Shown here: positions 4,144-28,460 of the stretch, piece by piece
Layout of the letters: each line of letters begins with the position of its first letter
How positions within the stretch are numbered: position 1 is the stretch's first letter
NCBI GenBank assembly: GCA_051362555.1
Contig: CM120640.1
Span: forward strand, 71,588,788 to 71,652,787
DNA: 64,000 bases
Direction: 5' to 3'
Origin: Lingula anatina
Lineage: Eukaryota; Animalia; Brachiopoda
Made by a program: the position numbers and the translations under genes
The notes under the pieces: model-generated
Seen by the model: the letters and a program-made list of their open reading frames with translations, nothing else
What the model was told of the DNA's origin: nothing
Databases searched by the model: none

Positions 4144-4784
4144 ATCCAGTCTACAGAACTGTGGTATTAACTACTGACCATCAACACTACTTAAAGCACC
4201 ACAGTGTCCAGAGGGAGCTCTCTGACCACAAGGTCTAGTCTGGAGATCTGTGGTATTAACTACTGACCATCAACACTACTTACAGCACCACAGTGTCCAG
4301 AGGGAGCTCTCTGACCACAAGGTCCAGTCTACAGAACTGTGGTATTAACTACTGACCATCAACACTACTTACAACACCCCAGTGTCCAGAGGGAGTTCTC
4401 TGACCACAAGGTCCAGTCTACAGAACTGTGGTATTAACTACTGACCATCAACACTACTTACAACACCCCAGTGTCCAGAGGGAGTTCTCTGACCACAAGG
4501 TCCAGTCTACAGAACTGTGGTATTAACTACTGACCATCAACACTACTTACAACACCACAGTGTCCAGAGGGAGCTCTCTGACCACAAGGTCCAGTCTAGA
4601 GAACTGTGGTATTAACTACTGACCATCAACACTACTTACAACACCACAGTGTCCAGAGGGAGCTCTCTGACCACAAGGTCCAGTCTAGAGATCTGTGGTA
4701 TTAACTACTGACCATCAACACTACTTACAACACCACAGTGTCCAGAGGGAGCTCTCTGACCACAAGGTCCAGTCTCGAGATCTG
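4144..4784 (-). repeat. 89-bp tandem repeat (7 copies) made of the ADGRA exon 3' end, the splice donor and the intron start
   Basis: Donor motif (plus-strand TTAC) recurs at 4725, 4636, 4547, 4458, 4369 and 4280; the copy at 4191 is mutated to TTAA. Confidence 0.95.
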
Positions 4785-4928
4785 CGAATTGACATCTGAG
4801 CAGACGACTTTCTTCCCCATGACTCTGTCTTCACTGTCCTTCTTCAGTGTGCAGCTACAGCTCAGTGGACATCCACTGCCCACGGTCACAACTGACCACA
4901 GGACTATGATCCAGCTGGTAATCCTCAT
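4729..4928 (-). CDS. ADGRA3: First coding exon of an adhesion GPCR A (GPR125/GPR124-like, LRR-type): signal peptide plus LRR N-terminal cap; gene continues left of this exon
   Basis: MRITSWIIVLWSVVTVGSG signal peptide, CPxxCxC, KVVCS and LPxDTVVL resemble the ADGRA3 N-terminus (KVVCS...LPNRTVTL). Phase-2 donor GTAAGT after 4729. Acceptor at 5001-5002; candidate non-coding exon ends at 5600. Confidence 0.75.
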
Positions 4929-5714
4929 AATGAATTAACTGCTACATCCATAGTGTGTGTAGACTGCTCCATGATATCCTGTATTCCATATTGATACTAC
5001 CTGAAATCTAATCAAAATACAGACATCAGCATTGGCAATGCCCCATCTTCAATATTCCTTTATGTATACACCTCTTTAACAAAGAGCATGTGAAAAATGT
5101 TCTCAAATACACTCAAATGTTAAAAATTGGTGGGTTTATCCATTTTGGCAGTACTAATACTAGTAAATTTTAAGATCCATGTTAAGTGTAAAGGAGTGAA
5201 AGTCTAGTTCTATCACTGATGTGCATTACATGGAAACAAATTTCTGTCTAGTTTTAAGACTATATAATAACTGAGAAAAATAAAGTGAGTATGAAAAAAG
5301 ACTTAATCACGGTGGAGCCGGTGATTGTACGCTTTCAGTGACTAGAATGAACCTGACGGAGAACCCTAATTTCACCTGTTAATTATCGGTGGACGGCGAA
5401 TGGCTCAACATAAGGTATCTGACCAGAGATACGTTTTCTGTGCATCCTAAAGAAGCCTAGTATTACTAAATACTACAGTGCTGAGACAGAGTGCGGCGAT
5501 AGACCACACAGCAGGCGGCCTACACACATACTCTGTAATCCTGCACGCTTTACCGGAACTTTAGCGGTTTACTTGCCAAAAAAATCAGCCTTGACTTACC
5601 ATTAAACCTTCCTGTTCCACTGATCGTCCTCACATTATGATAACTAAGCAAATATTCGCACAATTTTCAAACAAAACATACCCACATTTCAGTGAGTCTC
5701 AGTCCTTTCAGAAG

Positions 5715-9786: not shown

Positions 9787-12700
9787 TTAGATATTCTGAG
9801 GTTTACCGCACTCCACCATGGCATCAAGTGGCTCCACCTTAAAAGGTGCATCAATCCAGTGTTTGAATTGACATGGCTTGTAATACTGTCCATCCACAGT
9901 CTTCACATTGAATGCTTTGATAGCAATGACATAGTACATCTCACCCTCATAGAGGGCCAGGGTTCCCCATTCTAAACTTGGACATTTCGCGCAAACAATC
10001 TTCTTCTGCAATTCCATGCCATCAATGTGAATGACCTTCTTAGGATCTTTGAGCTGGATCTTATTCTGAAAATCTTCATCTAACACAACATGGTGGCTCT
10101 CTTTGATTTTTCTCAGATTTGCAGTACTCGCTGCAAATGTTTGACATTTGCGACAAACAAGATGGAATTCCTCAGATGATTTTTTAGCTAATTTTTTCTG
10201 ACGCTTAATAGCTTCTATGTCCATCTTTTTTATTTCCTCTCTCTGAAAAGTCATTATTTGCTGCGACACATCTTCTCTTTCCAGTTTCCTTTTCATCACG
10301 GCTACCGCTTTATTCATCATTTTTTCCTTCTGACAGTTGAGAGCTGCCTTTAACTGAAAACGATCCTCTGCCATTACGTAAGAGGTGGCATCCTTTGCTC
10401 GGTTTCTTCCTAAGATAAATATTTAATATGATATATGGTAAGATCAAAATTAATAGTAATAGCAAGATTATGCCCATCTCCCTTAATAGTAAAATAATTG
10501 CAACCTAAAAAACCAAAAATCACAATATCATATAAAATACTATCAATCTACTTGGTGTCATATCTTTGTATTTTCTGCTTTATTCAATTCTGAAATGTTA
10601 ATTCACAATGTAACTGTTACCTCTTGTTTGAACTGTGCTGATTTCATTTCCAATATGGTTGTATAATATGACAAAGTTGCACTCAGGAATATCCAGACCT
10701 TCTTCAGCCACTGTTGTTGCAATCAGAAGACGGCATTCACCCGTTCTAAATTTGGCCAGAATGTTTTCTTGCTCATGTTGAGTCATCCCTAATTATGGAC
10801 AAACATTTAAATATTAATTAACTATCAATACACACAATCATGACTGTCAGGTATAGTAAATTAGGCCAGATTTCCATTATTTGGCAAAACACAGCAAATA
10901 CCCAAAATGTTTTTTCAAAGCTAGAAATGTTAACATTAAGACAACACTTCTATGCTCACCTCCTTGTTCTTCTGAGGCCCGTGCCCCCGTAAACTTCTCT
11001 GGTCTGACAGTTTCCGCAAGGTCCAGTTCCGTCAGCCAGTCATACAGTGCCTGCACTATGGCTAATGTGGTCACAAAGATGATGCCCCGGGAATGTAGAG
11101 CCCTGGTGTTACCTTCAATACGCTGCTGAAGCTGGAGGAGTCTTGGGTTTTGATACCTGGGATCCTCAGCGAGTTTGATGACTTCTGGACGCACATCTGC
11201 AAATTATAAATAAAGTTTACAAAAATGTTCCTTTCTGCAGTACATGTATATACAAAATTAAAATCCTGAAATTTGACTATAATCAAAATGGAAAAGGATA
11301 TCAGTTTTGTTTCCTTGGAATGTTGCAGCTGATAGTTAACAGCAGCTGTTGTAAAATAATCTGATGTACAAGTTAAACTTTCGGTTCTTAGAGTTCATAC
11401 CTTCAAACATTTGGAACAGCTCTTTTTCCAATGCAGTTTGTATATGCTGTCTGGTGCTGTAAGGTGAAAACTTCTGTACTAAGTACTCCACAGCATCCGA
11501 GGTCCTGGCATTTCTGTTCACCCCCAGGGCTACATTATATCCCTGCAACAATATTCAATTAAACATTTAACCTAGTTACAAACAATTAAATTTAAAGTTA
11601 CTGTGGCTACAGACCCAACTTGCTTAACTAATCTTTGGCATAAACCTATATAACAACACTGTAGGGGTCCATATTCCTCCCTGCCCAGGTTCTTCTAATA
11701 TATTTCACTTGTCACTAATGCATGGCAGGGCCGTAGCCTGAGCATAATGCCAGGGGGGGGCAGTAAGCGGACACGAGGGGGCGAAAGTAACCGAGGGGGG
11801 AGGGTGTGGTGTGTAAAATTCCAAATTTCAGGGGGGTAGCTGCCCCCCCTGCCCCCCCCCCCCCCCCCCCCCCGGAGGCTACGGCCCTGCATGGGTGAAA
11901 TTTTATACTGGATAAGCATAACATATGGGGCTATTTGGGTACTCTAGCTTTGTTTTTATTAGTGGTATGCATAGGAATCTTTTGTCTAAAAAATTATGGA
12001 AATATAATATGTCGAAAATTTATTTTACAGAAAAAGAACAGGCGCAATCAAGATGCAGAAAGCAGGAGTCCCACGGAAAGACCATCTGTAATCGTATAAC
12101 ATTCATCAAGACACTGTTACTCCGTTAATAGTCAGAACGCAGGACTCGATTGAGCCACTGCGTTCCCTATATGATAAAGATTTCAAATTCCAGGATTAAA
12201 CCGCAAATTTCCCAGCTTGTAAATCATCTGTGTGGATGCGATCTTATTGCTGCATCAGAGACTTGATAGTAAGATTAAATCCACACACGGATATACTAGT
12301 ATGTCACATAAATATCGATGTGGACTGTTGATTGTGTACGATAGGTTCAATTTTCATGATATGTATATTGTTTTTTAGCTAAGGGGAGGTTACGTTAAAC
12401 TATCACGACCCTGGGAAGGGGCTTCGACACTATGATCCTGGGAAGGGACTTTGACACTTCGACCTGGGAAGGGACTTTGACACTACGACCCTAGGAAGGG
12501 TCTTTTAGAGTGGGAACTGAAGATGTAAGTTTGTGGTTATATTCCCTCTCCCATGCATCAGTGACAAGTGAAATATTAGAAGAACCTGAGTAGGGAGGAA
12601 CATGGACCCCTACAACACGTACAAGTTCATTTAAAATACCATATGTCCTTTCACTTACACAAATCCCACAACAGAGTTACCACAGAATTAATCACAAGTT

Positions 12701-13488
12701 TGAGCTATCCCATGAAAACAACAAACCTGGAGATAATCTGTGCAGGTAACAATGGTGCGGGTCAGCTCTGGATTTTGACTCACTGTTGGGGCTATCTTGC
12801 CCAGCTGTGTCGCCCACTGGTGGTATTGCTGGCTGTCACGCTCATTGGGAGCTTTGGTTAAGGCCTTATTACCACTGCTCAGCAGGTCATAACAGACTGA
12901 ATGATGATATAAACAGTTTGATTGGATGACAAAAAAAAACACATAATGATACATAATGATTGCTTAAACTTCCACTTTAAATTTTTTTTAATTAAAAGGT
13001 ATCATTGATTTTTATCACAAATTTTACCTTAGATTTTGTATTTTAACCAAATTTGAAATCACTGCCCAATACAAATATCATATAGTTCAAAAATACAATG
13101 CTGAAATGTTAAGAATATTTTTGATACTGGCCTGAAACTCCAATCTAGATGATAATTACCCATACAATTATAACGAGAGGATGTGAAAATTACATTTTAT
13201 TTCTGTATATGCCACTAATAAGGTCAAAGGTATGTAATGGTCCATGAAGAAAAATAATTTAGAAAGTGAGAGTGACCAAAATTACTATATACAAAAGTCA
13301 ACTCCTGCAGAACTTTTTATCCTTTTACTGTTATCTTTATACGAACTGGTGACATAGAAAAACAATCAAAATAAGTCAAATTTTCTATGTCCACTGATGT
13401 ATTTTTAAGTGTTCTAATTATTTCTGTTCAGTTATTCAGCATAAAAGCTGAGAAATCAACTGATTATACACCAGTTAATTGTCACTGC

Positions 13489-13571
<83 letters not shown>

Positions 13572-16500
13572 GGTTCATGTTTAAATAATTCATACATACT
13601 TGGAGACTGTTTAATGATGCTCTCTATTCTCTTCATAATGGCAATGATTTTGACTCTGAAGGGGTCTTCCTGACGGTTTGGTAAAGGCTGGAATTCTACA
13701 ATGAAATGTAAGCATTAATAGAGGAAACTTTACTTCACATTTCAAAGGATTCATCATCTCATCAGTCTAGTAAGGACATCAATGGTCAAAGAGTATCATA
13801 CATCCTGCAGGGGTACTAATACAGGTACATGCCAGATCACTGCCTCAGTAATATAATTTATTATTCTGAATAAATGAAGTTGGTTCTTATATATTCTGAA
13901 CTGAAAATTAATCTGGTATTATAGATGCATTTTTCCTTGCTTACTTTTGTAAAGGAAAAAATAATCATATAAAAGAAAAGATGTACATATATATGTATGT
14001 AAACAGGGCAACTTATAACCAACAGAAGCATTGGACTTACAGTAGGGCTATCTTGGATGATACCTATTTAACTTAATAGAATAAACTTAATTAATCCAAT
14101 AGTAGACTTGATCAGTGTTTCCAACATTATGTCCTTGCCCAGTAGGTGAAGAGCTGCAAAGCTAATGTTTCCTTTAAATTTTTACCCGACATGAAATAAA
14201 ATGTATTGTATTGTATTGTATTGTATTGTATTGTATTGTATTGTATTGTATTGTATTGTATTGTATCTAAGCTTAAAACAATATGATGAATCAATTGACA
14301 TTCAGGTTGTTAACCTAACCTTCATTTGGCGTGTTGACGTACTGGTCCAGTTCATCTCTATACCTTTCCACTGTGGCTATACAGCGGCTGTCTAGGTTAG
14401 CACATAGATGTAAGATATGGCTCTCTGCTTCATAATCCGTCTTAGCATCTCCAACTCCTAATGAAGCAGTCATACCTACAATCTAATTATGAGAAGAAGG
14501 TCAGTCTCAGTGATTTCAACACCAAAATTTGTATTCCTGCGATTTCTTTAGTTAGAACAACATGACTGACTGTTGTATCCAAGACTGTCTTGATTTAGTG
14601 CTTCGGTGTTTCAATTAAAGCAGTTATAGTTTTTACAGCACACAGTCTCAGGTTCTAATTTTTTTTTTTTTTTGTGGAACCAATTTGCCAGTATAAACTG
14701 TTATAATTGCCATTCTCTGAACAGAAATATAGAGAGAGAATACAGCAATGACCAATAATTCTAAGATCCATCCTTCTACTAAATATTGTACACTAACTGT
14801 AAAAAGATTATCTACATCATGACTTGCACATAACATCTGTGTTTGTATGTATATAATAGTGTTTATTAAAGGGATAATAACTCTTCGTATGAGGTCTATA
14901 TTTCACAACAGAAACATCGTGAACAACTCATAGAAATAAAATATATTCTGTTTTACGACAAAAACAGCAGTTATAGCTATTATTCTGATATCTGAACTTG
15001 TCTTCAGACCACGTCACCTCCATTGATGGCTATACTCTGTTATAATCTCTTAAGAGAATTTAACAAAAAACCAAACTTTTTAGAAAAAAACCAGGGACTA
15101 ACTTTGAATGTAAAAATGGATTCATTAACCATTGGTAAGTATGGGAAAATTGTTGTTTACTCCAGGAAAATTCATTTTTTGGCCAAAACGAAGAGTTATT
15201 ATCCCTTTAAAGTCCAAGCCTTCTTTTAAAATCAAACTGATAACCAATAGTTATTATTATTATCAAATGCATACAATGCCTATTAGATCATTATGAAGCA
15301 AAGAAAAAAATTCCTGGAAATTTTGTCTTTACTTCATAGGTAATTTGCCTAGCCAAAACTGCTGAGAAAATAATGATCTACTTTCTTTTTTTTTTTTACA
15401 TTTCAGATTTGGCATTTTTACTCAGTTTCTATCTCCATTATACGAGAGTGACTCAAAAACTACAAACTCAAACATGGAATTATCATCGAAATTCTGTGAA
15501 TGGTTTTTGGATACTTGACGTTTTTGGATACATACATTTTCGTGCATATAAAAAATATGGTACGTATATAAAGGTCAACTGTCATTACCTGGGGCAACTT
15601 CACCATTTTGTCCCTGTGTTTCTGTCTTATATATCTGGACATGATAGCATTGTAAGGATTGCCTTTCTGGGTGTGATGGCATTCATCAAAGATCAGCAAG
15701 GAGAACACGTCCAGAGAAGAGATGGTGTTTTCTAGCAAGTGGTTTTCCAAGATCTGCGGGGTCAACACAATGATGTCAAACTCAGAAATCAGCTGGTGCA
15801 GAAATTTATTTGACTCATCATCTCCACACACTTTCAGCACCTGGTAATAAAGGAATTGAGAGGAAACATCAAAATTAATTGTGTACATATATTATGTTGA
15901 TCAATATCTAAAGTACACTCTATTTAAAACATGTTTCTGACATATCTGAACAATGTGTATCATACAGTGGTAATTAAGACGCTTTTTCCCCGCTTTCATA
16001 GTTCTTTCATTTAATTAGGTCTCACTCCAAATCTAGCATAATGTTGCCCAAACACATCTCTCCTGCAAATTTCAAAAGAACCATACAGATGGGTTGGAAT
16101 TTATCAGCATTATTATCACAAGTTTATTAATAAACTATATATGTCTATAAACAGATTAAAAAAGGTGAAAGAAAAACTCATCCTGAGCTTCAGAGAACAT
16201 ATACCCTCAATTCATATTTTTCAAATAGTTGACAGAATAGTTGGTACTGCTGTTCAACCAGTGGAACTTTACAAGCCATAAACACCACTTTTCTATCAGC
16301 TCCTGTAAAATATTGTTATAAAATAGAATTAGGATATAATACAAAGCTGTAAATATATTTTGACATATAAATTCTGGCAACTTACTTACACGAAAGTGCA
16401 GGTTACATAAACTACTTTCTAAAGTATTAGATAAAAAATATTGAGATTTCTTGGAGTGCAAGGAAAAAAAAACAAAACAAAAAAAAAAAACATTCACCTT

Positions 16501-19492
16501 GTTTCAAGTGTTCTGCCACAATGTGTGCTGCTACCCTAGTTTTACCACTTCCTGTGGGGGCCACAATGATACAATTCTGCCCTCTCAGGGCAGGCTCTGC
16601 TAACTCATGCTGATAATTACGCAGACTAAGTTCATCTATAAATCCATGAAAGACAGGAGAAGTAAATTCAAAAGGTGAACATCCAGAAAATTGCACTCAT
16701 AAGTAATATTTACCAATTTGTTTTTATGGTTATTGAAAATATACATAACTGTATTTAACTAATAAATATATATAACTGTATTTAACTAATAAATATATAT
16801 AACTGTAAATGGGGCCGTAGCAATAGTCTGAAGGTTCGATAGTCCTAAGGTTCATTGGTCCAAATATTCACTATAAAACCTTGAGACCAATGAACACTTG
16901 ATTTAAAAAAACAATGAAAATGTTACCATTTTTCGGACCAATGAACCTTCGGACTATGGAGAAGCCCCCACTGTAAATAAATATAACTGCATACATGTAT
17001 TTCTACTGTTAAAAAAGATAAAAATATTACCTAGAAAAGCACTACGAGACCACAGTCCTCCATCAGGGCAGCTCAATTTTAATTAATTAATTAATGGATC
17101 ACCACCAAAATCATATCAATTTTAAGTTACCCACTTCCTGGCTGATGATTGACACTGTACAGGACACACATGGACAAGACACACATGGACAAGACACATA
17201 CTGCTGATGATTGACACTGTACAGGACACACATGGACAAGACACATACTGCTGATGATTGACACTGTACAGGACACACATGGACAAGACACATGCTGCTG
17301 GTTTTTTATTTTTGCATAAACAACCTTCATTATTTCTTACCTGTTATGTTCAAATCACTCAACTTGAGAGACACTTGTTCAACTTCTGCACCTAAAGCAA
17401 ATTAATTATATTAATCAACCAACCAATCTAACAGTTAATATTTAGTTAACTTTAATTAACTCTTAAAAGATAATAAGAAAACACTTTACCAATTAATTAT
17501 TCATCACTGTTGTCAATGTTGACAGCTTGCCATAACATTCAGTTTCAGTGTTAATGAAGAATGGCCGCATGTAAATCAGCTGCCATATCAGATGACTTTG
17601 TACCAGCTAGATAGTCAAATTTACCTGTGATATTTCTGCCTTCATCAGCACTGCCGTATTTCCTCCATTTAGGAGGTACAGCATCAATAGTGTCCCCAGC
17701 AATCTCCTTGGTGACTGTCCTCTTCTGGCTGGTCTGGTACTGCTTCCAATCTAGTTTGAAATATTTCAATAAAATTCTCATTGAATTATGATGTAAAATT
17801 ATATCTTCTGATAAGAATCACCCACGCACCCTGCAAAAAATATAATTTAAGCCAGCAAAAAAGAACAAACCTTATATTCACAATATTTCTTGAGATCTAG
17901 GTTATTAAGATCTTGGTCTAGTTGTCTGCAACTGCTTAGACTAGACTGTGTACTGACCATCATACATGTACATGTACTATTATCATATTTAAAACAATAA
18001 TAAAACACATATACCTGGATTGAAATCTGGATCTATCAGCTGCACCAGTTCTTTATCTTTTTGATTTCCACTGTTCCAGAGAGAATACAGGAAGTCAGTG
18101 TACCAGGTCTTCTTGAGAGTGGGCAAGTGTCTGAGTAGCAACAAGCTGCCATAATACCTGCCTTTGTTCCGTGTCTCTGCTCTGATCCTGTCTACAGTGC
18201 TGTCAGACAACACACCTCTCTGGATCAGATGTGGAAGTAACTGGATTGGTTCCAGGTACTCTATGATATGAGGCCTAAATACACGTAAATGCTTCTCATG
18301 CAAGTCCTCAAAGCGCACAGAGTTAAGATCATATTTCATCCCATCTACATGCTGGGAAAAATCACTCAGTGCTTTAAAGTCTTCTAATATTTCTAGTGCA
18401 GTTTCACTACCTGAAAGTAATAACATCACATAATTTTCAGTTTTAAATGTTTAAAAACTTTAGGTATTTTCTTAATATGATTATTTAAAATATAATAATA
18501 CAAATATATTCCAAATATGAAAGTAAAATTTAGCAGAATTACCAGTACTTGTCAGTGAAGATGGAGAGGATATTTGCCACATATCATGTATTTGCACAAT
18601 TACTAATCAATACTTCCATGAAATTCTTTTTCGTCACTTCCATTTGTCAAACAAAATGTTCTTTACCAGTTTCCTTCAGTCCATTAACAAACACTGTGAA
18701 CCAGCCAGGATCCGTACTTTCTAAAACAAAACTCAGCAAGAGCTCTGCTCCTTTCCGTGGTCCTTTCTCATCTGTAGCAGCTTTTATTTTATCTTCTTCA
18801 GCTAAAACAGATTCACAGATTAGTACATCAGTTTCTGTTTTGTTTAATTTTAAGTATGATATAAACCTCTAGTGAGAAAAAAATCAGGCTGTAAAATTTA
18901 AAATTTAATGGCTGATTAACTTTTCTCTTCATATTTGAAGATCTTTAAGACCTCAGAGTTACTTTTACATAGAGCCCCTCTTAATATAAATACCACTTCA
19001 AATAAAATATACCTTAATTGCATGGTATCATATATACAGAAAGTGTGGGAAGTAGATGAATACTTTCTTCTTAAATGTGTTCATGTGCAATAATTTCTAC
19101 CAATGTTCTATAAACAAGCATATATATTTGAATGAAAATTTATCAAACACAAGCCAAAATATTAAGCTTACATCCAACCTGGGTATGTAAAGGCCTTCAT
19201 TAGACTGATGTGAGTAGATGGCCGTAATATTTCAGTGTTTGATAATTTTCACTTATGATCCAACTATACCAAGCTAATAAACATTTTTGCTCATTTAAGA
19301 GCATTTCTCTTTCATGCACCTCTTTTCCAGTGAGATTTTCGGATTTCGTATGCAAGGGTCATATATATCTCTTTAAGTCCCCTGCATCATTACTCCTCAA
19401 CATTTTCACTTTCCTAAATCCATATAAAATACTCCCAGTAAAATTTATATATGTGCACACATCAGTACACTCCCACGTCAGGGCCGTCGCTC

Positions 19493-19560
<68 letters not shown>

Positions 19561-19705
19561 TGCCCCCCCTGGGATTTGAGGTGCAAAAAAAAATAATAAT
19601 TGCAATTTCTGAATTCTGATTGAGCAATAAATAACAGTTAAAATTCACCAGAATGCAGTATTATACATACAGTTTTTACAAAGTTTTCTACACGAACATG
19701 AACAT

Positions 19706-19758
<53 letters not shown>

Positions 19759-19797
19759 TGTACATGTTCATGTTAACAACACCAAGAACAGACATAC

Positions 19798-19840
<43 letters not shown>

Positions 19841-20028
19841 ACGAAAGCAGAATATTTACCTTTACCGATGATATCAGACAGATGAACACAGAGTTCAACT
19901 GGTTGTATTTTGTCGATGAAAACTGTTGAGCATACAGTTAATATTTCCCTCTGCAGTTGAAACTTGTCGATATGCGAGTCGCCTTGACCAACTTCATCGC
20001 ATTCTTCTCTTGGCTGACTATTATCCAT
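9787..20028 (-). CDS. DDX58: RIG-I-like receptor (2xCARD, DExD/H-box helicase, Zn-binding CTD), 15 exons, about 987 aa; RIG-I versus MDA5 orthology unresolved
   Basis: Exons 20028-19860, 18801-18667, 18410-18015, 17750-17625, 17391-17341, 16635-16498, 16302-16205, 15840-15589, 14482-14320, 13695-13600, 12896-12727, 11542-11401, 11196-10960, 10788-10621, 10409-9787. All GT-AG and phase-consistent; total 2964 nt. Motifs: [15 protein letters not shown], Ia KVPLVEQQ, Ib [42 protein letters not shown]; CTD CRKC...CAKC. Confidence 0.95.
11660..12614. mobile_element. Non-autonomous TIR element with TGT...ACA ends and a 4-bp TSD (Ginger-like) in an RLR intron
   Basis: About 65-bp TIRs (TGTAGGGGTCCAT...CACTAATGCATGG versus 12551-12614); ACAC at both 11656-11659 and 12615-12618. 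Confidence 0.8.
11726..11889. mobile_element. 164-bp GC-rich MITE nested in the left TIR of the Ginger-like element
   Basis: TIR CAGGGCCGTAGCC / GGCTACGGCCCTG; CATGG duplicated at 11721-11725 and 11890-11894. Confidence 0.8.
13492..13571. repeat. Compound (CA)n(CAA)n microsatellite
   Basis: Directly visible. Confidence 0.95.
14135..14266 (+). mobile_element. 3' end of a non-LTR retroelement with AATAAA and a (TATTG)n tail
   Basis: Shares CCCAGT..TGAAGAGCT and TACCCGACAT.AAATAAAAT.TATTGTATTG with 21865-21940. Confidence 0.65.
14870..15206. mobile_element. 337-bp MITE with 19-bp TIRs and a TTAA TSD (Kolobok-like AG...CT ends)
   Basis: AGGGATAATAACTCTTCGT (14870-14888) versus ACGAAGAGTTATTATCCCT (15188-15206); TTAA at 14866-14869 and 15207-15210. 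Confidence 0.8.
16811..16969. mobile_element. 159-bp MITE with a 9-bp TSD (Mutator-like)
   Basis: ACTGTAAAT at 16802-16810 and 16970-16978; GGGG...CCCC ends; internal inverted ATAGTCC.AAGGTTCATTGGTCC / GGACCAATGAACCTTCGGACTAT. Confidence 0.75.
17140..17299. repeat. About 56-bp tandem repeat (about 3 copies) in an RLR intron
   Basis: CTGATGATTGACACTGTACAGGACACACATGGACAAGACACA repeated. Confidence 0.85.
19479..19580. repeat. Poly-G tract (about 60 G) inside a CAGGGCCGT-type MITE remnant
   Basis: CAGGGCCGT start matches the element at 11726. Homopolymer length may be inflated by sequencing or assembly. Confidence 0.6.
19710..19836. repeat. (TA)n and (TAA)n microsatellites in RLR intron 1
   Basis: Directly visible. 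Confidence 0.9.
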
Positions 20029-20566
20029 AGTCCAACAATTGATCGGGAAACTAGACAACTCCTTACTTCTAATTATTTCAACTAGAATTTATAGTATTAC
20101 ATGTACCCGACCCTTTACTAAAGTGAAAGCTAGTTCAATCGCGAATGGAATTTATATCTAACAATGTAGAAAAAAATTGGTAAATTCCCACAACATCTCA
20201 GATCTCGTAACGATTGAATAAATACCTGGAAAATACTAAATCGAACTTTCCTTTTCAAATACGTCTCTGCAATTTTCCAGAGGGAATCCCCCTATTTCCC
20301 GACTAACACGAGTATTTCCCGGCAGGTCTAAACACACTGATAAGTTATTTCTTTTATGTCATTTAACTTAAAAAAAAACTCGTTCATGTGTAATATAATA
20401 AAGAAAATATAAAAATCAATTTTACTTTTAAAAATTTAGAACCATAAATATATTAGTATAATTTTATAGATGTTTGCTAATAATAATAATCGTAATGAAT
20501 TGAGAGCTGTGTACATCGTGGTGACGTAAATTCAACAGCCATTTTGGTATCTGGAATCGAAAGCAG
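20029..20566. promoter_or_regulatory. Candidate bidirectional promoter shared by the RLR and MAVS genes, with IRF/ISRE, NF-kB, ATF/CRE and YY1-like motifs
   Basis: AAAGTGAAAGC 20120-20130; GAAAAGGAAAGT on minus 20245-20256; GGAATCGAAAGC 20553-20564; kB GGGAATCCCC 20282-20291 and GGGAATTTAC on minus 20180-20189; TGACGTAA 20522-20529; GCCATTTT 20538-20545. Confidence 0.6.
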
Positions 20567-21169
20567 GTGGGTTATTTTCCTGTTATGTTATCGGATATTT
20601 TCTGTTACTTAACGGGAGTTAGTTACGATTTTAGTCATCACAAGAAGTAGATGGGCTAAATATGACGATTGGAAGAAGATATTGTCAACCCGGTTTTACT
20701 ATCCGGTAAATTATCTATTCATATAATAAAGGAGTAACTACTACATAATATTGTCATATTTTAAAATTAAATTATCCAAGCACATGTACAAGTGTTACTG
20801 TAAGCAGTAAAAGAACAACTAGCTAGTGGTCTGTTGTAGAATATGCATGCTTGTCTTTTTATATTTTAAGCTGGAAAATGCCGGATCAGTATATGAATAT
20901 CTATAGCTCAATTTGGCCCTGCTTAATTAGTCACGTCATTGCTCGTTCAGTTTTAATTGAAAAATGAAAAAAAATGAACAATAATTTATGCAGTGCTATA
21001 TTTGAAGGTACGCCAGTTTTTTGTTTGTTTGTTTGTTTGTTTATTACTTTTTTGTTTATTTGGATTCAAACTACTCAGTATAACACCCTCAAAACCAAAA
21101 ACATTTTTTTACTTCTAAATGTGTCATACAAGTTCAACAAATTTCAAGCGTTTTTATTGGTAAAATAGC

Positions 21170-21940
21170 AGACCACCATAGTAATGAGCAGTTATCTTTC
21201 AATGGAAAATTGGTGAAACCAGAACCTTGGGTCAAACTCCTTGGGTTTTACTTTGACCCAAGACTGACTTTTAGCAAACACATCTCAGAATTATGTTCTC
21301 AAACAGCATGTCCATTAAACACTCTGAGAAGGCTTTCAGCTTATCTAGATGTTTCAAGAGGGCTTGCCATATTCAGGCACTACATTATCACACTTGAATT
21401 ATTGTCTGTTAGTATGGCACTTTTGTGCTGAGGGAATTTGAAAAAATTAGAAAAGATACAGAGAATTAGGGGTCTAAGATCTAGATTTGTCTACAACAAC
21501 CACACAAGCAGTTATAATGAGCTGTTAAATATGTGAGGTCTTTGCAAAGGACCTTGGAAAGGACCCAAATGCAAATTTAGCTTGTGTAACCTATATACAT
21601 TCAGCAAAGCTGTGTAATAATGTATACAACATGTTTGCATTATTTTATGCATCTATATTAGTGAGCATTGTATGTAGAAATATTTGTTTTTAACAATAAA
21701 TTATGTCTAGCATTTGTATATTAATAATCATAGAACGATTTTTCATTTACTATCTTAATTAAAAGACTTCATGTGTGTTTGTATTTTCTGTAGAAAGACT
21801 TTCCATTGACTATCTTACTAGACCTCATATAAATATTGTATTATTTGTAGAAATGTTTGTCCTAACCCAGTCGATGAAGAGCTCCTTTCAGTTTATACCC
21901 GACATTAAATAAAATTTATTGTATTGTATTGTATTGTATT
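21170..21940 (+). mobile_element. Degenerate LINE 3' fragment(s): RT C-terminal part plus AATAAA and (TATTG)n tail, in the MAVS 5' intron
   Basis: ORF 21210-21431 VKLLGFYFDPRLTFSKHISELC...LNTLRRL resembles the post-RT region of CR1/L2-type ORF2; frameshifted downstream; tail at 21901-21940. Confidence 0.7.
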
Positions 21941-21961
21941 AATATTTCTATTTTATACAGA

Positions 21962-24900
21962 ATGGAAGACAAATATAGGAAGATAATCCGGGAAAACAAT
22001 GTAGAACTAGTGAACAAAATAGAACCTGTGCAACTGATGCCACACCTCTCATGTCTGACAGATGTGGACAGGGTAAATAAAAAGACTTGATAGAGATCAC
22101 ATGATTCTTAGAGAGCATTCACATCGAGAAGAGCCGAGGTCTAGCAAGGCCGAGACCTAAATATGGCGGACCTTCATGAAAGGAAGACCGCATAATCCTT
22201 TAATGGTCTTTCAATGAATGTCAATGAATGTCATTGAGAGACCATTAAAGGATTACGCGGTCTTCCCCCCCGGGGGGGGGGGGGGGGGGGGTAATGCCCA
22301 TATAGAGATTGTAAGTGCTAATAAAAATAAAGTAAGTACTCAGAGTTTGTAATAATATAAGTTATCAGTATTATATATAAAACAAATTTGGACATGCTTT
22401 GAGCAGTGGTGACATGAACAAATTTTAGAACTGACATTGTTTATTTCTAAGAATTTGTATGGTATTTGATACTCTTATGTTATAAACAGTGCCAGATGAG
22501 AATTGTAATGGATTTTTTAAAATGTTCACCAGAGATGAAAGAGAGTGTTAACAGTTTTAACTTTATTAACTTTATTAACTTAAGTTTTTTACTTTATTAA
22601 CTTTATTAAAAACTTTATTAAACTTTATATAACTTTATTGAACTTTATTAAAATATAATATACTTCCAGGAGAATATAACAGCAGAGTTGAGGTGTAATG
22701 GCAGGTTCTTTGGGGCAGTGATGTTACTAGACAAGTTACCAAGAAAAGACCAGTGGTTCCCACAGTTCATTTCAGCTCTAAGAGAAACAGGCCAGTTAGA
22801 GCTGGCCAGAAAACTTGACCCCCAGGAGACAAATGGAACTGATGATACTGAAAGAGGTCAGGGTGACCCCTGCAGGCTTGTGACTGTCTTTAGCACTTTG
22901 ATTAGAATCTTTGGGACCATTCCCAGACCCTCTCATACTAACTTTGGATCGATATATCTCCTAGGGGGTTCTTGCTAAATTGCAATCAACTTAAGCGGCT
23001 TAGATGTCTGTTACGCCCACTGAAGCTGAAAGGGGATAATTAACTATCATTTAGCAGCTCTAGAAGACGTGTCAGACATGTAAGCTGCTTAAGCTGAAAG
23101 CGATTTAGCGAGAAACCCCTTGGAGATGGACTGATCCTGTTAGATCAATCTAGGTATGGGAACCCAGTCTTTGCTGAGTCTGTTGATTATGTTGGGGAAG
23201 ACTTATGGTAAATTTTATAAATCAGATTGATAAAAAGTCCAGGCATGCTAACCATGGAAGAATTAAGTAATCTAATACATCCCTGGGGGGATTCCAATGA
23301 ATTATGTTATTTCTCTCCTGTATAATGTTTTTCAAATTGTCCTGTTGTTGGTACAGTTTCTTTTAATTCAGGTGAACGGTATATTAGAAAGAAAACATTC
23401 AAGGAGAGTAAAGCCACCAACAGAGCCCAGAACACCAGTCCAGATGGGAAGACATTGCTGAGGGAGCTGCCGTATAAGGTCACCACCACTGTGGCTAGGT
23501 ACCTGAACATCACAAATAGACATCATGGAAGGGACTGGAAGGGGCTGGCAGCAGAACTAGGTCTGATAAAGGGATGATATATTTATTTAAGGGTTTTTAA
23601 GGGATTTGAACATAAAACATTAATATCTGTCTGGGAGTGGCTGAAGAAAGGGGTAGAGATGGGTAGGGGGTAGGGGTGGGAAGGTAAAGGGGTAGGGGTG
23701 GGAAGGTAAGAGAGTAGGGGTGGGAAGGTAAGGGGGTAGGGGTGGGAAGGTAAGAGAGTAGGGTTGGGAAGGTAAGGGGGTAGGGGTGGGAAGGTAAGGG
23801 GGAAGGTAAGGGGGTAGGGGTGGGAAGTAAGGGGGTAGGGGTGGGAAGGTAAGAATGTAGGGTTGGGAAGGTAAAGGGGTAGGGGTGGGAAGGTAAGGGG
23901 GAAGGTAAGAGAGTAGGGGTGGGAAGGTAAGGGGGTAGGGGTGGGAAGTAAGGGGGTAGGGGTGGGAAGGTAAGAGAGTAGGGGTGGGAAGGTAAGGGGG
24001 TAGGGGTGGGAAGGTAAGAGAGTAGGGGTGGGAAGGTAAGGGGGTAGGGGTGGGAATGTAAGAGAGTAGGGTTGGGAAGGTAAGGGGGTAGGGGTGGGAA
24101 GGTAAGGGGGAAGGTAAGAGAGTAGGGGTGGGAAGGTAAGGGGGTAGGGGTGGGAAGTAAGGGGGTAGGGGTGGGAAGGTACCCTCTACCAGGGCGACTG
24201 ATAGATTTTTACGGATATTCACAGATATGTCTCTAGCTAGATAGATTATCATTTTCAGCTGAAGTCACCCTGTACAGAAATCCCAAGGTTGATTACATGG
24301 CTGGTAATTGTTTGCATAACTGCTCAGGCACTGCCACTTGGCAGGTCTAGTCTAAGTCTGCGTGACAGCAATCAAGACAGTTAATTGCTCTGACCTTAAT
24401 CACTTGCTCTTCTGACACAGATAAAAATAGCCCCCAGTGAATAGCTTATTACTTCAGAGTGAGGCTAACTGTGGAATCCCCTGAAGTAGTTGCAGAGGTA
24501 TAAATACTGGTGCAGTAGCAGCCTGAAAACATTGAGCCGAATCCCAATATAAAATGAGTTTTCGCCCTTTTTTCTTTTTAACTCCGCATCTGGAAATAAT
24601 TGTTTGATCAGCTTCCCTAAAATGTGTCTGTCCAATCCAAATGTCCTCTCTAACGTGACCACTTTCAAAGAACTTGTGTACGGCCCACTCTTCGGTCCCA
24701 TTACAATTGAACTCTTGAGCCTAAAACCAAGATATAATTATTTCAGAAGATAAGGTTTTACCCGAATCACGTTGCCTTAACCTATTAGCCTACAGCATGT
24801 CCTTACTGCAGGAGACGTTTTACAAAGAGTCATTAATAAGTAAGTCATATAAAAGACTAAACAGAGTCTATATAATTGCATCAGAAAGAAGATACCCCCA

Positions 24901-27900
24901 AGAATAAATTGTCAGAACGTCTTACCTCTCTATTTTCTGGGGTTTTTTGGAGGAAACACCGGGCGTGATAGCCACCATTTTTTAAAGCTGCAGTACGGAA
25001 TTGTGGGATACGGCTTACTTCGGGAAACCCCTTCCAACCACGTGACTGGTTTCTGCAGACAGCAGAGCCGGTTACGTAACGTACAGTTAGCATATCGTCG
25101 CGAAGCGAAGCTCATGCAGAGCGAGAATAAAGCCCTCTGCGCGCGGGTAGAGATAATTGCTCCCACATGGGATTTCTGTACAGGGTGACTTCAGCTGAAA
25201 ATGACAATCTATCTAGCTAGAGACATATCTGTGAATATCCGTAAAAATCTATCAGTCGCCCTGGTAGAGGGTAGTGGAAAGGTAAGAGAGTAGGGGTGGG
25301 AAGGTAAGGGGGTAGGGATAGGAGGGAAAGGGGGTAGAGATGGAAAGGTAAGAGGATAGGAATGAGAAAGAGAGGGAGGGGGGCTACTGGTAAAGGTTAC
25401 TTAAGGCTGCTGCAGTGTAGAAAAAGATAAATTCCAGCATTGATTTATCATCCTCCTGAAGTAGATTACAAAGCAGCCATAGATGGTAGATAAATCATTT
25501 CTGAAATATACGCCAAATGAAACACGTATGTAAATGTCTGCCATATCCTGCTGGTGTACTAGTTACAATCAACATGGTTTGAATTCCAGACTTCTTCCAC
25601 AGTGAAGTTCAGTCTCTGGAACAAGAGGAGAGTCCTACAGAGTCTCTGCTTCAAAGATGGCAGCAGAAGTGTCCCCATGAAGCCACACTGGGCAGGCTGT
25701 GTCAGGCACTGGAAAGCATGGAGAGGATGGATCTTTTGGATGAGATCTATAAAATAATCAGTTATAGGGTAAGCATTGGCCTTTACAGACTTTGGCACTC
25801 TAGAGGGTGAGGGAGGGACCAGGTAGACATTGTATGTGTTTAGTTAAACGTCAAACTTTAATCTATTACCATTTAAAAAATGGCAAGTACTTTACAATGC
25901 AGTTTTATTATAAACCACTTTGAAAATGTTGATGAAAACAAAATATTTATTGAAAATAAATGTTTTACTATTCTATTACCAAGCATAATGTCTCCGGGCC
26001 CAGACAGCAGGTGTCCCAGGACAGCCAGGTCCCAGGACCTTTCTCCCCTGTTGTGGATAACTCAGGCTCTCTGTCTTGGACTTCACCAGAACCAGAGGTG
26101 ACAGCTGACAGCAGAGTGCCAGAAACTGAGGTGACAGCTGACAGAAGAGCACCTAAAACTAAGGTGACAGCTGACAACAGAGTGCCAGAAACTAAGGTGA
26201 CAGCTGACAGAAGAGCACCTAAAACTGAGGTGACAGCTGACAACAGAGTGCCAGAAACTAAGGTGACAGCTGACAGCAGAGGGCCTGAAACTGAGGTGAC
26301 AGCTGACAGCAGAGTGCCAGAAACTAAGGTGACAGCTGACAGCAGAGGGCCTGAAACTGAGGTGACAGCTGACAGCAGAACGCCAGAAACTGAGGTGACA
26401 GCTGACAGCAGAACGCCAGAAGCTGAGGTGACAGCTGACAGCAGAGGGCCTGAAACTGAGGTGACAGCTGACAGCAGAGCAGCAGAAACTGAGGTGACAA
26501 CTGACAGCAGAATGCCAGAAACTGAGGTGACAGCTGACATCAGGGCACCAGAAACTGAGGTGACAGCTGACAGCAGAGCAGCAGAAACTGAGGTGACAGC
26601 TGACAGCAGAATGCCAGAAACTGAGGTGACAGCTGACATCAGGGTGCCAGAAACTGAGGTGACAGCTGACATCAGGGCACCAGAAACTGAGGTGACAGCT
26701 GACAGCAGAGCAGCAGGGAGAGAGCAGGTAATTATATAGTGTCAGGGAAGCTGGGAGAGGGAAGCTTGTTTTTATAGTGGACCTTGTGTGGCTCTGTTGG
26801 GAGATGGATGAAACTTTTAAGTTAAAACTATAAACATGCTTATATTGATGGTACAGATATGTTTATATTGATGGTAAGGTCATGTTAATACCCATGGTAC
26901 AGATAAGTCTTTTTTTTTTTGATCTTACATCAGCAACCAATAGGCGACAGCTCTGATCCAGAAGCAAAGGTTCCGTCATCCTCAAACACTGTCCCAGGGG
27001 GTGAGCCACAATTGACCCTCTTGGCAGAGGAAAGAACAGACCATATAAATGATGAAAAGTGTCCATCAACTACTTTAGGAGAGGACTCAAAGCCTTCACT
27101 TCAGCCAGTAAAGGAAGTAAATCCCGGTCACATACATAGAAAACAACCACAACCCACTGAATATGAGCAGGATAGTGCCTGCAAGCCTCCCCAAATGACA
27201 GTAGAGGCAGTGAATGGAGGTCACATACAGAAAGAACAGCCACCACCTGTGCAGCAGGACCAGGAGAGTGAATCAAAACCTCCCCCAGTGGCAGCAGAAG
27301 AAGTGAATGGACATACTGTGGCACAAACAGACCCAATAGAAAATGGTCCTATGAATGCAATGAATGACACGTCAAAAGATCTCCCTTTTTCCACACAAGA
27401 AGAAGGCAAACTTCCCTCCATGTCCAGCATGCAGAAACCATTACCTTTGTCCCAGGAGGAGGGAGACAATCAGCCTTCAGGGCCCTCTAGTGGCAGTATG
27501 GATAAACCATTGCCTTTGTCCCAGGAGGAGGAAAATGTTCAGCCTTCAGTGCCCCCTAGTGTCAGCCAACAGAACAACCTCAGTCCTCCCAGTATGGTTG
27601 GTACTGGATACACCCACCTAAACATAACACAGGCTGAGGGAGAGAATAGTTACATTTCTAGTGGCTCTGAAGTTAACATGCTAAAGAACAGGTCTGGATT
27701 CCAGGGGTTGACCCTTGATAACAATATAACTGGGAGTTCTGGAGAGCACTCAGCAGGTGGTGGCACAGACAGCTCTCTGCAGCATGCCTTGAAACTCAAG
27801 AATCCAGATGCTAGTTTGGTTGGTCGTCTTGAAGAAAGTGAAGAGGATGCAGTATTATCAAGAGGTGTGGCTGATGGTGCATCATGTCCATCAGAACACC

Positions 27901-28460
27901 GTATAACATTGCTGAAACACCCAGAGGACCAGGAAGAGAGCAGTGTTGTTCCCAAGGTATTGTTCAGGCCCCCCTCAGATGATTCCCCTGCTGTATCACA
28001 TCAGACCAGCTCCTTGGAGGGTGACAAGTTGACCCTCCCAGCGCAGGCTCCTGTCACTCTGTCCCCTGTGCCAGAACACCCCACCAGTCCTTCCTACAAG
28101 TCCAAGTGTCCAGAACCTCTGACCCTGGTGGACGATGACACAGCCGAGGACAGACAGAGAGTTGACCGTAGTCAGATAGCTGACAGACCTCAGTCTGGAA
28201 GTCCAGCTCAGGGTCATGTGACAGATGGAAGTCCAGGACTGAGGATGCGCAGGAATTCTCTGCGAGGTGGCATATTGCCTGAACTCCCCAAGCTGGACAT
28301 CACTCCAAGACAGCCCCAGGAATTTGTCTGGGACAGACCTGCTGCCAACCAGGCACAGGAACCTCAAGACAGGGCCGGCTTGAATAGGCTGACAGTGGCG
28401 GCACCTTTTGTAGTGTTTGGTCTCTTAGCAACCATAGGACTATACAAGAATTTAAGGTGA
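21962..28460 (+). CDS. MAVS: MAVS/IPS-1-like antiviral signalling adaptor: CARD, death domain, 19x11-aa repeat, Pro/Ser/Glu-rich region with TRAF motifs, C-terminal TM anchor; about 978 aa
   Basis: Exons 21962-22072, 22670-22856, 23372-23560, 25590-25768, 25984-26727, 26934-28460; phase-consistent, total 2937 nt. CARD KIEPVQLMPHLSCLTDVDR|ENITAELR...WFPQFISALRETG. DD ...DWKGLAAEL|DFFHSEVQSLEQEESPTESLLQRW...ATLGRLCQALESMERMDLL. TM LTVAAPFVVFGLLATIGLY followed by KNLR. Candidate upstream exon donors at 20567 or 20706; the latter adds an in-frame ATG at 20662. Confidence 0.88.
22182..22266. repeat. Inverted repeat/hairpin (36-bp arms, 13-nt loop) in a MAVS intron
   Basis: 22182-22217 versus 22231-22266, 2 mismatches. 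Confidence 0.85.
22902..23170. mobile_element. MITE-like element related to 8427-8650
   Basis: Shared terminal TAGATC.ATCTA...ATGGGAACCCAGTCT and ATTTAGCG.GAA.CCCC motifs. Confidence 0.5.
23645..24180. repeat. Purine-rich G-tract minisatellite (about 21 bp, GGGGTAGGGGTGGGAAGGTAA), potential G-quadruplex; resumes at 25272-25383
   Basis: Directly visible; interrupted by the TIR element at 24182-25271. Confidence 0.9.
24182..25271. mobile_element. 1090-bp DNA transposon derivative with 104-bp TIRs flanked by TA, in the intron splitting the MAVS death domain
   Basis: TIRs 24182-24285 and 25168-25271 differ at one position; CCC...GGG termini; TA at 24180-24181 and 25272-25273. Confidence 0.9.
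24465..24978 (-). CDS. Two-exon ORF (102 aa) inside the TIR element encoding an RFX-like winged-helix fragment
   Basis: AAAAATGG start at 24978; exon 24978-24926 with GTAAG donor; TTTTAG acceptor; exon 24720-24465 in frame. LGKLIKQLFPDAELKRKKGENSFYIGIRL resembles the RFX motif GKLIRSVF...YYGIRL. Confidence 0.55.
26086..26712 (+). repeat. Coding 33-bp minisatellite (19 x PETEVTADSRx) in a MAVS exon
   Basis: 19 units counted in ORF 25960-26739. Confidence 0.95.

What the first reader, a model, noticed from the sequence alone, without database searches (positions are those of the whole stretch)
9787..28460. Head-to-head RIG-I-like receptor and MAVS gene pair: an antiviral sensor and its adaptor at one divergent locus
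Seen: a complete 2xCARD RLR gene (minus, ATG 20028) and a CARD-DD-TM MAVS-like gene (plus, ATG 21962, candidate first exon about 20530-20705) point away from each other, about 0.5 kb apart at their inferred 5' ends. Established: RLR CARDs nucleate MAVS CARD filaments; in human, DDX58, IFIH1 and MAVS are on different chromosomes. Inference: this is a co-regulated, co-inherited receptor-adaptor module, analogous to plant head-to-head sensor/helper NLR pairs. It could be an ancestral linkage or a dedicated pair among expanded invertebrate RLRs. I am not aware of this arrangement having been described.
Basis: partly seen in the sequence, partly recalled or inferred. Interest (0 to 1): 0.9.

Follow-up and report, generated by a model that had tools for sequence, protein, structure and literature searches.

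The report
Brachiopod RIG-I–MAVS head-to-head gene pair
In a lamp shell (Lingula), the gene for a RIG-I-type viral-RNA sensor and the gene for its likely signalling partner, a MAVS-like adaptor, sit back to back and are transcribed away from each other from starts about 0.3 kb apart, echoing a sensor-partner linkage so far reported only in sea anemones and corals and hinting that it may be older than the split of cnidarians and bilaterians.

Summary
Observation confirmed. Minus strand: an intact 15-exon, 987-aa 2xCARD RIG-I-like receptor (RLR). Plus strand: a 978-aa CARD–Death–repeat–tail-anchor protein with the oyster-MAVS layout, orthologous to Lingula anatina LOC106168967. Stranded RNA reads show both genes expressed in opposite directions, with 5' ends about 0.3 kb apart or less. 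The shared stretch holds a palindromic kB-type site and IRF-type motifs.

A 2025 preprint reports a CARD-only MAVS-like gene (CARDIB) next to RLRb across Anthozoa, binding RLRb. My searches found no report for a bilaterian or a membrane-anchored MAVS. If the two linkages are homologous (about 45%), gene position argues that CARDIB and MAVS are orthologues, against that preprint's conclusion.

Extra: the MAVS CARD end differs far more from the reference orthologue (70% identity) than its disordered tail does (95%), suggesting diversifying selection.

Untested: synteny in other bilaterians, co-induction, direct binding, and a DNA read across the 0.2-kb spacer. The scan's earlier notes held no such pair.

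The parts
9787..20028 (-). RIG-I-like receptor gene, 15 coding exons (20028-19860, 18801-18667, 18410-18015, 17750-17625, 17391-17341, 16635-16498, 16302-16205, 15840-15589, 14482-14320, 13695-13600, 12896-12727, 11542-11401, 11196-10960, 10788-10621, 10409-9787), 987 aa
   Evidence: Open spliced frame, GT-AG introns; Pfam; three introns seen as read joints
18667..20028 (-). RLR CARD1 (exons 1-2)
   Evidence: CARD_2 on exon 2, E 1e-9; best PDB match RIG-I CARD1; groups with other first CARDs, support 78
18015..18410 (-). RLR CARD2 (exon 3)
   Evidence: CARD_2 E 9e-11; groups with bivalve second CARDs, support 92/73
10621..16635 (-). SF2 helicase core with insertion domain (exons 6-14)
   Evidence: DEAD, RIG-I_C, Helicase_C; motifs intact
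9787..10409 (-). Pincer and Zn-binding C-terminal domain (exon 15)
   Evidence: RIG-I_C-RD E 5e-23; best PDB match duck RIG-I E 8e-16
20029..20270 (-). Transcribed 5' leader of the RLR (outer end approximate)
   Evidence: Reads of minus-strand orientation in X3 and X6 (stranded, judged from same-study runs) and X8
20120..20130 (+). IRF-element-like motif AAAGTGAAAGC
   Evidence: Pattern scan; function untested
20245..20256 (-). ISRE-like motif GAAAAGGAAAGT
   Evidence: Pattern scan; function untested
20282..20292 (.). Palindromic kB-type site GGGAATCCCC
   Evidence: 3 of the window's 6 pattern matches fall on this one site; function untested
20340..20499 (.). Untranscribed A+T-rich spacer (12-20% G+C) between the two starts
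   Evidence: Composition; no reads in 20309-20482 in 4 of 4 runs
20537..20567 (+). MAVS-like alternative first exon 1a (donor GT at 20568; start approximate); IRF-like motif at 20554-20564
   Evidence: Matches N-terminus of isoform P0002; reads in X3
20553..20705 (+). MAVS-like first exon 1b (donor GT at 20706; in-frame ATG 20662 would add 15 aa; start approximate)
   Evidence: Matches N-terminus of P0001; plus-strand reads in X6, X8
21961..22856 (+). MAVS-like CARD, exons 21961-22072 (ATG 21962) and 22670-22856
   Evidence: CARD_2; PDB MAVS hits; splice 22072>22670 in 13 reads of X6
23372..25768 (+). Linker and Death domain, exons 23372-23560 and 25590-25768
   Evidence: Death E 7e-13; best PDB Death match MyD88
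25984..26727 (+). Exon with 19 copies of an 11-aa (33-nt) repeat; 8 copies in the reference orthologue
26934..28460 (+). Last exon: disordered S/P/E/Q-rich region, TRAF6-type motif PQEFVW (28314-28331), transmembrane helix (28389-28445) and short basic tail
   Evidence: last 39 aa identical in the reference orthologue

Best explanation
An intact RIG-I-like receptor gene and a MAVS-type adaptor gene are transcribed back to back from a shared stretch of about 0.3 kb, and likely work as one co-regulated antiviral unit in which the receptor would bind viral dsRNA, its CARDs would seed the adaptor's CARD on a membrane, and the adaptor would signal through TRAF6 to NF-kB/IRF factors predicted to act back on the shared promoter. 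Shown: both genes, their domains, expression, orientation and spacing, and the motifs as sequence. Inferred from the RIG-I/MAVS pathway of vertebrates and oyster: RNA sensing, CARD-CARD binding, mitochondrial anchoring, TRAF6 use. Inferred from position: shared regulation, and descent from the same linkage as anthozoan RLRb-CARDIB.
For: Gene models and domains. Divergent transcription with a read-free gap at 20309-20482. kB site plus strict ISRE together in 0.22% of 5000 shuffles; three IRF-type motifs against 0.24 expected. Layout equals CgMAVS, which binds the CARDs of CgRIG-I-1, needs its TM, recruits TRAF6 and protects against OsHV-1 (PMC5557890). The plus-gene CARD is not a recent copy of the neighbour's CARDs: 33% identity, different intron position, separate place in a tree. 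Its nearest Atlas cluster by features and by structure is a 120-aa, mostly cnidarian 'MAVS-like' CARD protein. RLRb-CARDIB adjacency is reported across Anthozoa, with binding shown.
Against: Motif patterns were chosen after seeing the sequence, and most motifs lie on the RLR side of an A+T spacer, so two separate promoters are possible. CgMAVS is 'not dramatically upregulated' by poly(I:C) or virus. CARDIB-RLRb co-expression weakens after poly(I:C), and that preprint's tree separates cnidarian CARDs from MAVS. L. anatina has 8 RLRs (PMC8998645 supplement) and only one MAVS-like protein was found, so the adaptor probably serves several receptors. No second bilaterian genome was tested. No near-identical reference RLR protein was found (best 41%).
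Confidence: 0.58

Rival explanations
1. The pair is a real linked module, but the adaptor acts like CARDIB: it holds the neighbouring receptor in check at rest and is needed for activation only on challenge. Linkage then keeps the two proteins in balance.
For: CARDIB loss raises basal immune genes yet abolishes the poly(I:C) response. Supplementary figure legends of PMC5557890 say CgMAVS attenuates TRAF6-driven NF-kB and IRF2-driven reporter activity. Nearest Atlas cluster is the cnidarian CARD-only protein.
Against: The protein has a tail anchor, a Death domain and a TRAF6-type motif kept unchanged in the orthologue, all features of a positive signalling scaffold that CARDIB lacks.
Confidence: 0.17
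2. The adjacency is lineage-specific or accidental: one of about 8 RLR paralogues came to lie beside the single MAVS gene, with two independent back-to-back promoters (inducible RLR, constitutive MAVS).
For: Lophotrochozoan RLRs duplicate and move often (PMC8998645). The motifs cluster on the RLR side. The two genes are unlinked in human (recalled). X6 reads show the two 5' regions in a different allele combination from the window.
Against: A chance neighbour of MAVS being an RLR is about 8 in some tens of thousands of genes (gene number recalled), and the starts are within 0.3 kb. The same kind of adjacency exists in Anthozoa.
Confidence: 0.17
3. The plus-strand gene is not a MAVS but another CARD-Death adaptor (CRADD-like) or an RLR-derived CARD fusion that links the receptor to a death pathway.
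For: Top Atlas feature hit for CARD+Death together is a CRADD-named cluster (score 0.87). The second half of the CARD matches MDA5 CARD2 better than MAVS. No orthology tree with reference MAVS proteins could be built.
Against: The CARD is of the CARD_2 (RLR/MAVS) type, 65.6 bits against 22.6 for generic CARD. It aligns to human MAVS 5-85. C-terminal TM and layout equal CgMAVS.
Confidence: 0.05
4. The juxtaposition is an assembly join inside the 0.2-kb A+T spacer.
For: No DNA read was laid across 20270-20470. No whole genome is held. The reference orthologue of the RLR was not retrieved.
Against: No N in the window and no repeat of 40 nt or more between 19781 and 21882. Both 5' ends point to the same spacer. 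The accession of LanRLR3 (XP_013403651.1; span 10,177 bp against 10,242 bp here) is 47 numbers from that of the MAVS orthologue (XP_013403698.1), which is suggestive only.
Confidence: 0.03

Closest known systems
RLRb-CARDIB of Nematostella and other Anthozoa (bioRxiv 10.1101/2025.11.22.689925)
   Same: An RLR gene immediately next to a gene for a MAVS-like CARD protein; shared regulation proposed; the Lingula CARD's nearest Atlas cluster is a mostly cnidarian CARD-only MAVS-like protein (that it is CARDIB is my inference).
   Different: CARDIB is CARD-only and represses at rest, and RLRb has one CARD. Here the receptor has two CARDs and the partner has a Death domain, long linker, TRAF6-type motif and tail anchor. 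The orientation of the anthozoan pair is not stated in the text I could read (it is in Fig. 1 and supplements, not visible).
CgMAVS / CgRIG-I-1 of the Pacific oyster (PMC5557890)
   Same: CARD-Death-TM adaptor and 2xCARD RLR, same domain orders.
   Different: No genomic linkage is mentioned in the passages I read; CgMAVS carries no gene-model id there, so its position could not be checked.
Vertebrate RIG-I/MDA5 and MAVS
   Same: CARD_2-type CARDs, helicase and CTD; C-terminal anchor with short basic tail; TRAF6-type motif.
   Different: Genes unlinked in human (recalled); vertebrate MAVS has a proline-rich region instead of a Death domain; no pLxIS-type motif found here.
Plant head-to-head sensor/helper NLR pairs (RRS1/RPS4, Pik-1/Pik-2; recalled)
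   Same: Divergent orientation of two genes of one immune pathway; polymorphic interaction parts.
   Different: Unrelated proteins; those pairs are exclusive partners, whereas one MAVS here probably serves several RLRs; co-inheritance of alleles is not shown here.

Membership tests
RIG-I-like receptors | DExD/H (DECH) SF2 helicase with insertion domain | tested here: met
   DEAD, RIG-I_C, Helicase_C; motifs intact
RIG-I-like receptors | Zn-binding C-terminal domain | tested here: met
   RIG-I_C-RD 82 bits, cut-off 25.6; two CxxC pairs
RIG-I-like receptors | Tandem N-terminal CARDs (signalling type) | tested here: met
   CARD_2 on exons 2 and 3
RIG-I-like receptors | dsRNA binding and ATPase activity | not testable with these tools
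   Inferred from family
MAVS (bivalve type, CARD-Death-TM) | Single N-terminal CARD of RLR/MAVS type | tested here: met
   CARD_2 1-91 of 93, E 4e-18 on orthologue P0001; human MAVS 5-85, E 5e-6
MAVS (bivalve type, CARD-Death-TM) | Death domain after the CARD | tested here: met
   layout as in PMC5557890
MAVS (bivalve type, CARD-Death-TM) | C-terminal transmembrane helix with short basic tail | tested here: met
   Hydropathy 2.0 at aa 956-974, then KNLR-stop; simple hydropathy only
MAVS (bivalve type, CARD-Death-TM) | TRAF-binding motif | tested here: met
   One PxExx-aromatic motif at aa 931-936, identical in P0001; binding untested
MAVS (bivalve type, CARD-Death-TM) | Orthology to oyster and vertebrate MAVS in a CARD phylogeny | tested here: inconclusive
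   Tree of 33 CARDs held no reference MAVS; the CARD is apart from the neighbour's CARDs, with weak support; half of it matches MDA5 best
MAVS (bivalve type, CARD-Death-TM) | Mitochondrial location, RLR-CARD binding, filament formation | not testable with these tools
CARDIB-type regulator | CARD-only protein | tested here: not met
   978 aa with Death domain and TM
CARDIB-type regulator | Gene adjacent to an RLR | tested here: met
Bidirectional promoter pair | Divergent 5' ends under 1 kb apart | tested here: met
   Stranded reads, read-free gap 20309-20482
Bidirectional promoter pair | Shared cis-elements and correlated expression | tested here: inconclusive
   Motifs present; four runs give no usable correlation

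The most novel reading that the evidence does not exclude
RLR and MAVS were one head-to-head unit in the cnidarian-bilaterian ancestor: the Lingula pair and anthozoan RLRb-CARDIB are the same locus, making CARDIB the positional orthologue of MAVS, which later gained a Death domain and membrane anchor. The arrangement packs all three interacting CARDs into 5 kb (18015-22856), and in Lingula the adaptor end of this block is held under diversifying selection.
Probability: 0.4. Interest if true: 0.82.

Novelty: new variant of a known kind. Interest (0 to 1): 0.63.

Why it matters
The origin of MAVS is open: CARD trees are poorly resolved, and a recent preprint concludes that the cnidarian MAVS-like gene is not a MAVS orthologue. 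A bilaterian, membrane-anchored MAVS in the same neighbourhood as its receptor gives independent positional evidence that can be tested in existing genomes. It also gives a rule for finding 'missing' invertebrate MAVS genes (reported absent in abalone and Aplysia; PMC11103948, PMC9334734): look just upstream of RLR genes. The strongly diverged CARD alleles offer a natural test of receptor-adaptor co-evolution.

Tried and rejected
No own genome is held, so copy number and a second assembly could not be checked. The reference RLR orthologue was not found: 0 of 197 candidates scored; best of 150 listed representatives 37% on the last exon and 41% on the helicase; none of the 20 hits looked up by name was a Lingula protein (18 named from other animals or unnamed). 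A search for MAVS relatives returned only P0001 (1 of 17 and 1 of 1277 candidates), so synteny could not be read from contig lengths. Metagenome scan with an RLR alignment: 80 loci kept of 184; a CARD profile hit 2 of 80 (L003, L061), each a same-strand CARD best read as the RLR's own; L003 holds only 1.6 kb upstream and no opposite-strand CARD, which is too short to test. Oyster gene ids beside CgRIG-I-1 in one supplement gave no MAVS label. A single-sequence fold of P0001 residues 16-239 was poor (pLDDT 51) and its Foldseek matches were all E > 0.05: not used. The sigma-70 scan does not apply to an animal. No RNA holder was listed by the index; raw-read runs were laid instead. No complex prediction was sent: the receptor's first CARD is split over two exons and a pass would mirror solved structures. 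Expression across 4 runs (ranks by hand) is uninformative. Gerdol et al. 2018 on Lingula immunity is not held and may mention these genes. The scan's earlier notes gave no such pair.
Full report
1. What is in the sequence. Splicing at GT-AG sites gives two uninterrupted frames. The minus-strand gene runs from ATG 20028 to stop 9787 in 15 coding exons (987 aa). Pfam on 12 of its 15 exons finds CARD_2 twice, DEAD/ResIII, RIG-I_C, Helicase_C and RIG-I_C-RD; the first CARD matches RIG-I CARD1 best and the last exon duck RIG-I. In a tree of 53 helicase-CTD regions it falls in a clade (support 1.0) with mostly annelid and mollusc receptors. The plus-strand gene runs from ATG 21962 to stop 28460 in 6 coding exons (978 aa): CARD, Death domain, 19 copies of an 11-aa repeat, a long low-complexity region, one PxExx-aromatic motif, a hydrophobic helix and a four-residue basic tail. 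Its only database relative is P0001 = XP_013403698.1, Lingula anatina LOC106168967. The last exon is 95% identical to it, so the window is from L. anatina or a close relative.

2. The 5' ends. Eight of nine listed RNA runs were laid, 6-26% of each read. In the stranded runs the RLR exons are read in one orientation and the MAVS exons in the other. Three RLR introns appear among the 15 joints shown (34 more hidden), and the splice 22072>22670 shows in 13 reads of X6. In one search the minus transcript reaches the bin 20222-20308 in 3 of 4 runs, the plus transcript lies in 20483-20743 in 3 of 4, and 20309-20482 is empty in all 4; X2 has neither exon. From bin means the outermost reads end near 20270 and begin near 20537, so the gap is about 0.3 kb or less. 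Depth is 1-8 reads, and no joint from the first exon to 21961 reached the listing threshold.

3. The shared stretch. 20029-20705 holds a palindromic kB-type site (20282-20292), an ISRE-like motif (20245-20256) and two further IRF-type motifs (20120, 20554). A kB site and a strict ISRE occur together in 0.22% of 5000 dinucleotide shuffles; three relaxed IRF motifs are seen against 0.24 expected; the strict ISRE alone is unremarkable (8%); no GAS motif was found. I chose these patterns after seeing the sequence. Three of the four sites lie on the RLR side of a 160-bp A+T spacer.

4. Is the plus gene a MAVS? Its layout is that of oyster CgMAVS (PMC5557890: passages, two results sections and supplement passages read). 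The orthologue's CARD covers CARD_2 positions 1-91 and aligns to human MAVS 5-85 at E 5e-6, although an MDA5 chain scores alike. It is not a recent copy of the neighbour's CARDs: 33% identity, a phase-0 intron about three codons from the phase-1 intron of RLR CARD1, and a separate, weakly supported place in a tree of 33 CARDs (duplicate P0001/P0002 segments left out). The nearest Atlas cluster, by features (0.90) and structure (TM 0.92), is a 120-aa, mostly cnidarian 'MAVS-like' protein. Formal orthology is untested.

5. What is already known. bioRxiv 10.1101/2025.11.22.689925 (abstract to discussion read whole, methods in passages; figures and supplements not visible) describes CARDIB, a CARD-only best reciprocal hit of human MAVS, adjacent to RLRb in Nematostella, Exaiptasia, Xenia and Acropora. 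It binds RLRb, represses at rest and is required for the poly(I:C) response. The authors conclude that it is not a MAVS orthologue, and the text does not give the orientation or mention bilaterian linkage. Ten full-text searches listed no report of RLR-MAVS linkage in a bilaterian; most hits were seen only as listings. PMC8998645 (passages and whole supplement) lists 8 Lingula RLRs and tandem arrays, with no mention of MAVS as a neighbour in the passages found. PMC11103948, PMC9334734, PMC8476169, PMC6723221 and PMC8455134 were seen in passages, PMC7064767 in supplement rows only. The main paper on Lingula immunity (Gerdol 2018) is not held.

6. Is the linkage conserved? Not shown. LanRLR3 (XP_013403651.1) spans 10,177 bp against 10,242 bp here, and its accession is 47 from that of the MAVS orthologue, which hints at the same scaffold in the reference assembly. 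Against this, no near-identical RLR protein came back. The metagenome scan gave no locus long enough to test. An assembly join is unlikely (no N; no long repeat in 19781-21882), but no DNA read was laid across the spacer.

7. An unexpected pattern. Against P0001, the three exons nearest the promoter (CARD, linker, start of Death) are 112 of 160 identical (70%), the rest of the Death domain 53 of 59, and the last exon 475 of 502 (95%); Fisher p 4e-15. The folded domain is thus far more diverged than the disordered tail. Reads show two further CARD alleles: among the rows listed (142 hidden), changed codons in the first CARD exon are 10 replacement to 1 silent in X6 and 9 to 2 in X8, against 5 to 5 for listed rows of the last exon in X1 (p 0.06). 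This suggests diversifying selection on the CARD; paralogous reads or cryptic species are not excluded. X8 also differs in RLR exon 1 (4 of 5 changed codons, all before the CARD), but X6 matches the window there at 7 of 8 listed sites, so the two ends do not travel as one fixed haplotype in these data.

8. Mechanism and verdict. Most likely (0.58) the two genes form a feed-forward antiviral unit: dsRNA frees the receptor's CARDs, these seed the anchored adaptor, TRAF6 and NF-kB/IRF factors are engaged, and the shared promoter raises both genes. All biochemical steps are inferred from vertebrate and oyster work. Rivals: a CARDIB-like brake (0.17), incidental adjacency (0.17), a non-MAVS adaptor (0.05), an assembly join (0.03). 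The finding is a new variant of a recently described kind. Its value is as positional evidence on the origin of MAVS, and it can be settled by a synteny survey of public genomes.

Noticed in passing
window 21962-23560 against 26934-28460: The MAVS-like CARD end is 65-74% identical to the reference orthologue while the disordered last exon is 92-98%; reads show two more CARD alleles with mostly replacement changes.
   Followed up: partly
window 26728-26933: Reads (X1, X7) and P0001 carry about 15 extra codons at the start of the last exon that are missing from the window; here a T run and a downstream AG give an in-frame acceptor. Allelic deletion or assembly error.
   Followed up: partly
window 25984-26727: 33-nt coding repeat: 19 copies here, 8 in P0001.
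   Followed up: partly
window 20651-20705: A two-codon upstream ORF (20651-20659) precedes an in-frame ATG (20662) that would add 15 residues before the CARD; the alternative first exon lacks it, so isoforms may differ at the CARD's N-terminus.
   Followed up: no
window 24180-25273: Non-autonomous element with 106-nt terminal inverted repeats (99%) inserted in a 22-nt minisatellite in a MAVS intron; a second one with 42-nt arms at 11660-12614 in an RLR intron.
   Followed up: no
window 14866-15210: High-copy repeat in RLR intron 8 that draws hundreds to thousands of RNA reads from elsewhere.
   Followed up: no
window about 29000-60000, minus strand: Exons with Anillin and PH domains (rhotekin/anillin-like gene) convergent with the MAVS-like gene.
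   Followed up: partly
window 41146-44232: LINE-type endonuclease and reverse transcriptase frames separated by one in-frame stop.
   Followed up: no
window 4725-4934, minus strand: Exon that looks like a signal peptide plus LRR N-terminal cap; no Pfam hit at E 0.01.
   Followed up: no
window 23374-25768: The Death domain's best solved match is that of MyD88 (E 5e-6), which hints at recruitment of IRAK-type kinases.
   Followed up: no
L001 9983-15469: Two apparently intron-free RLR-like helicase frames facing each other tail to tail on a 237-kb metagenome contig.
   Followed up: no
L003 1340-1960: Single-CARD RLR start with IRF-type motifs within 300 bp upstream, read by eye.
   Followed up: no
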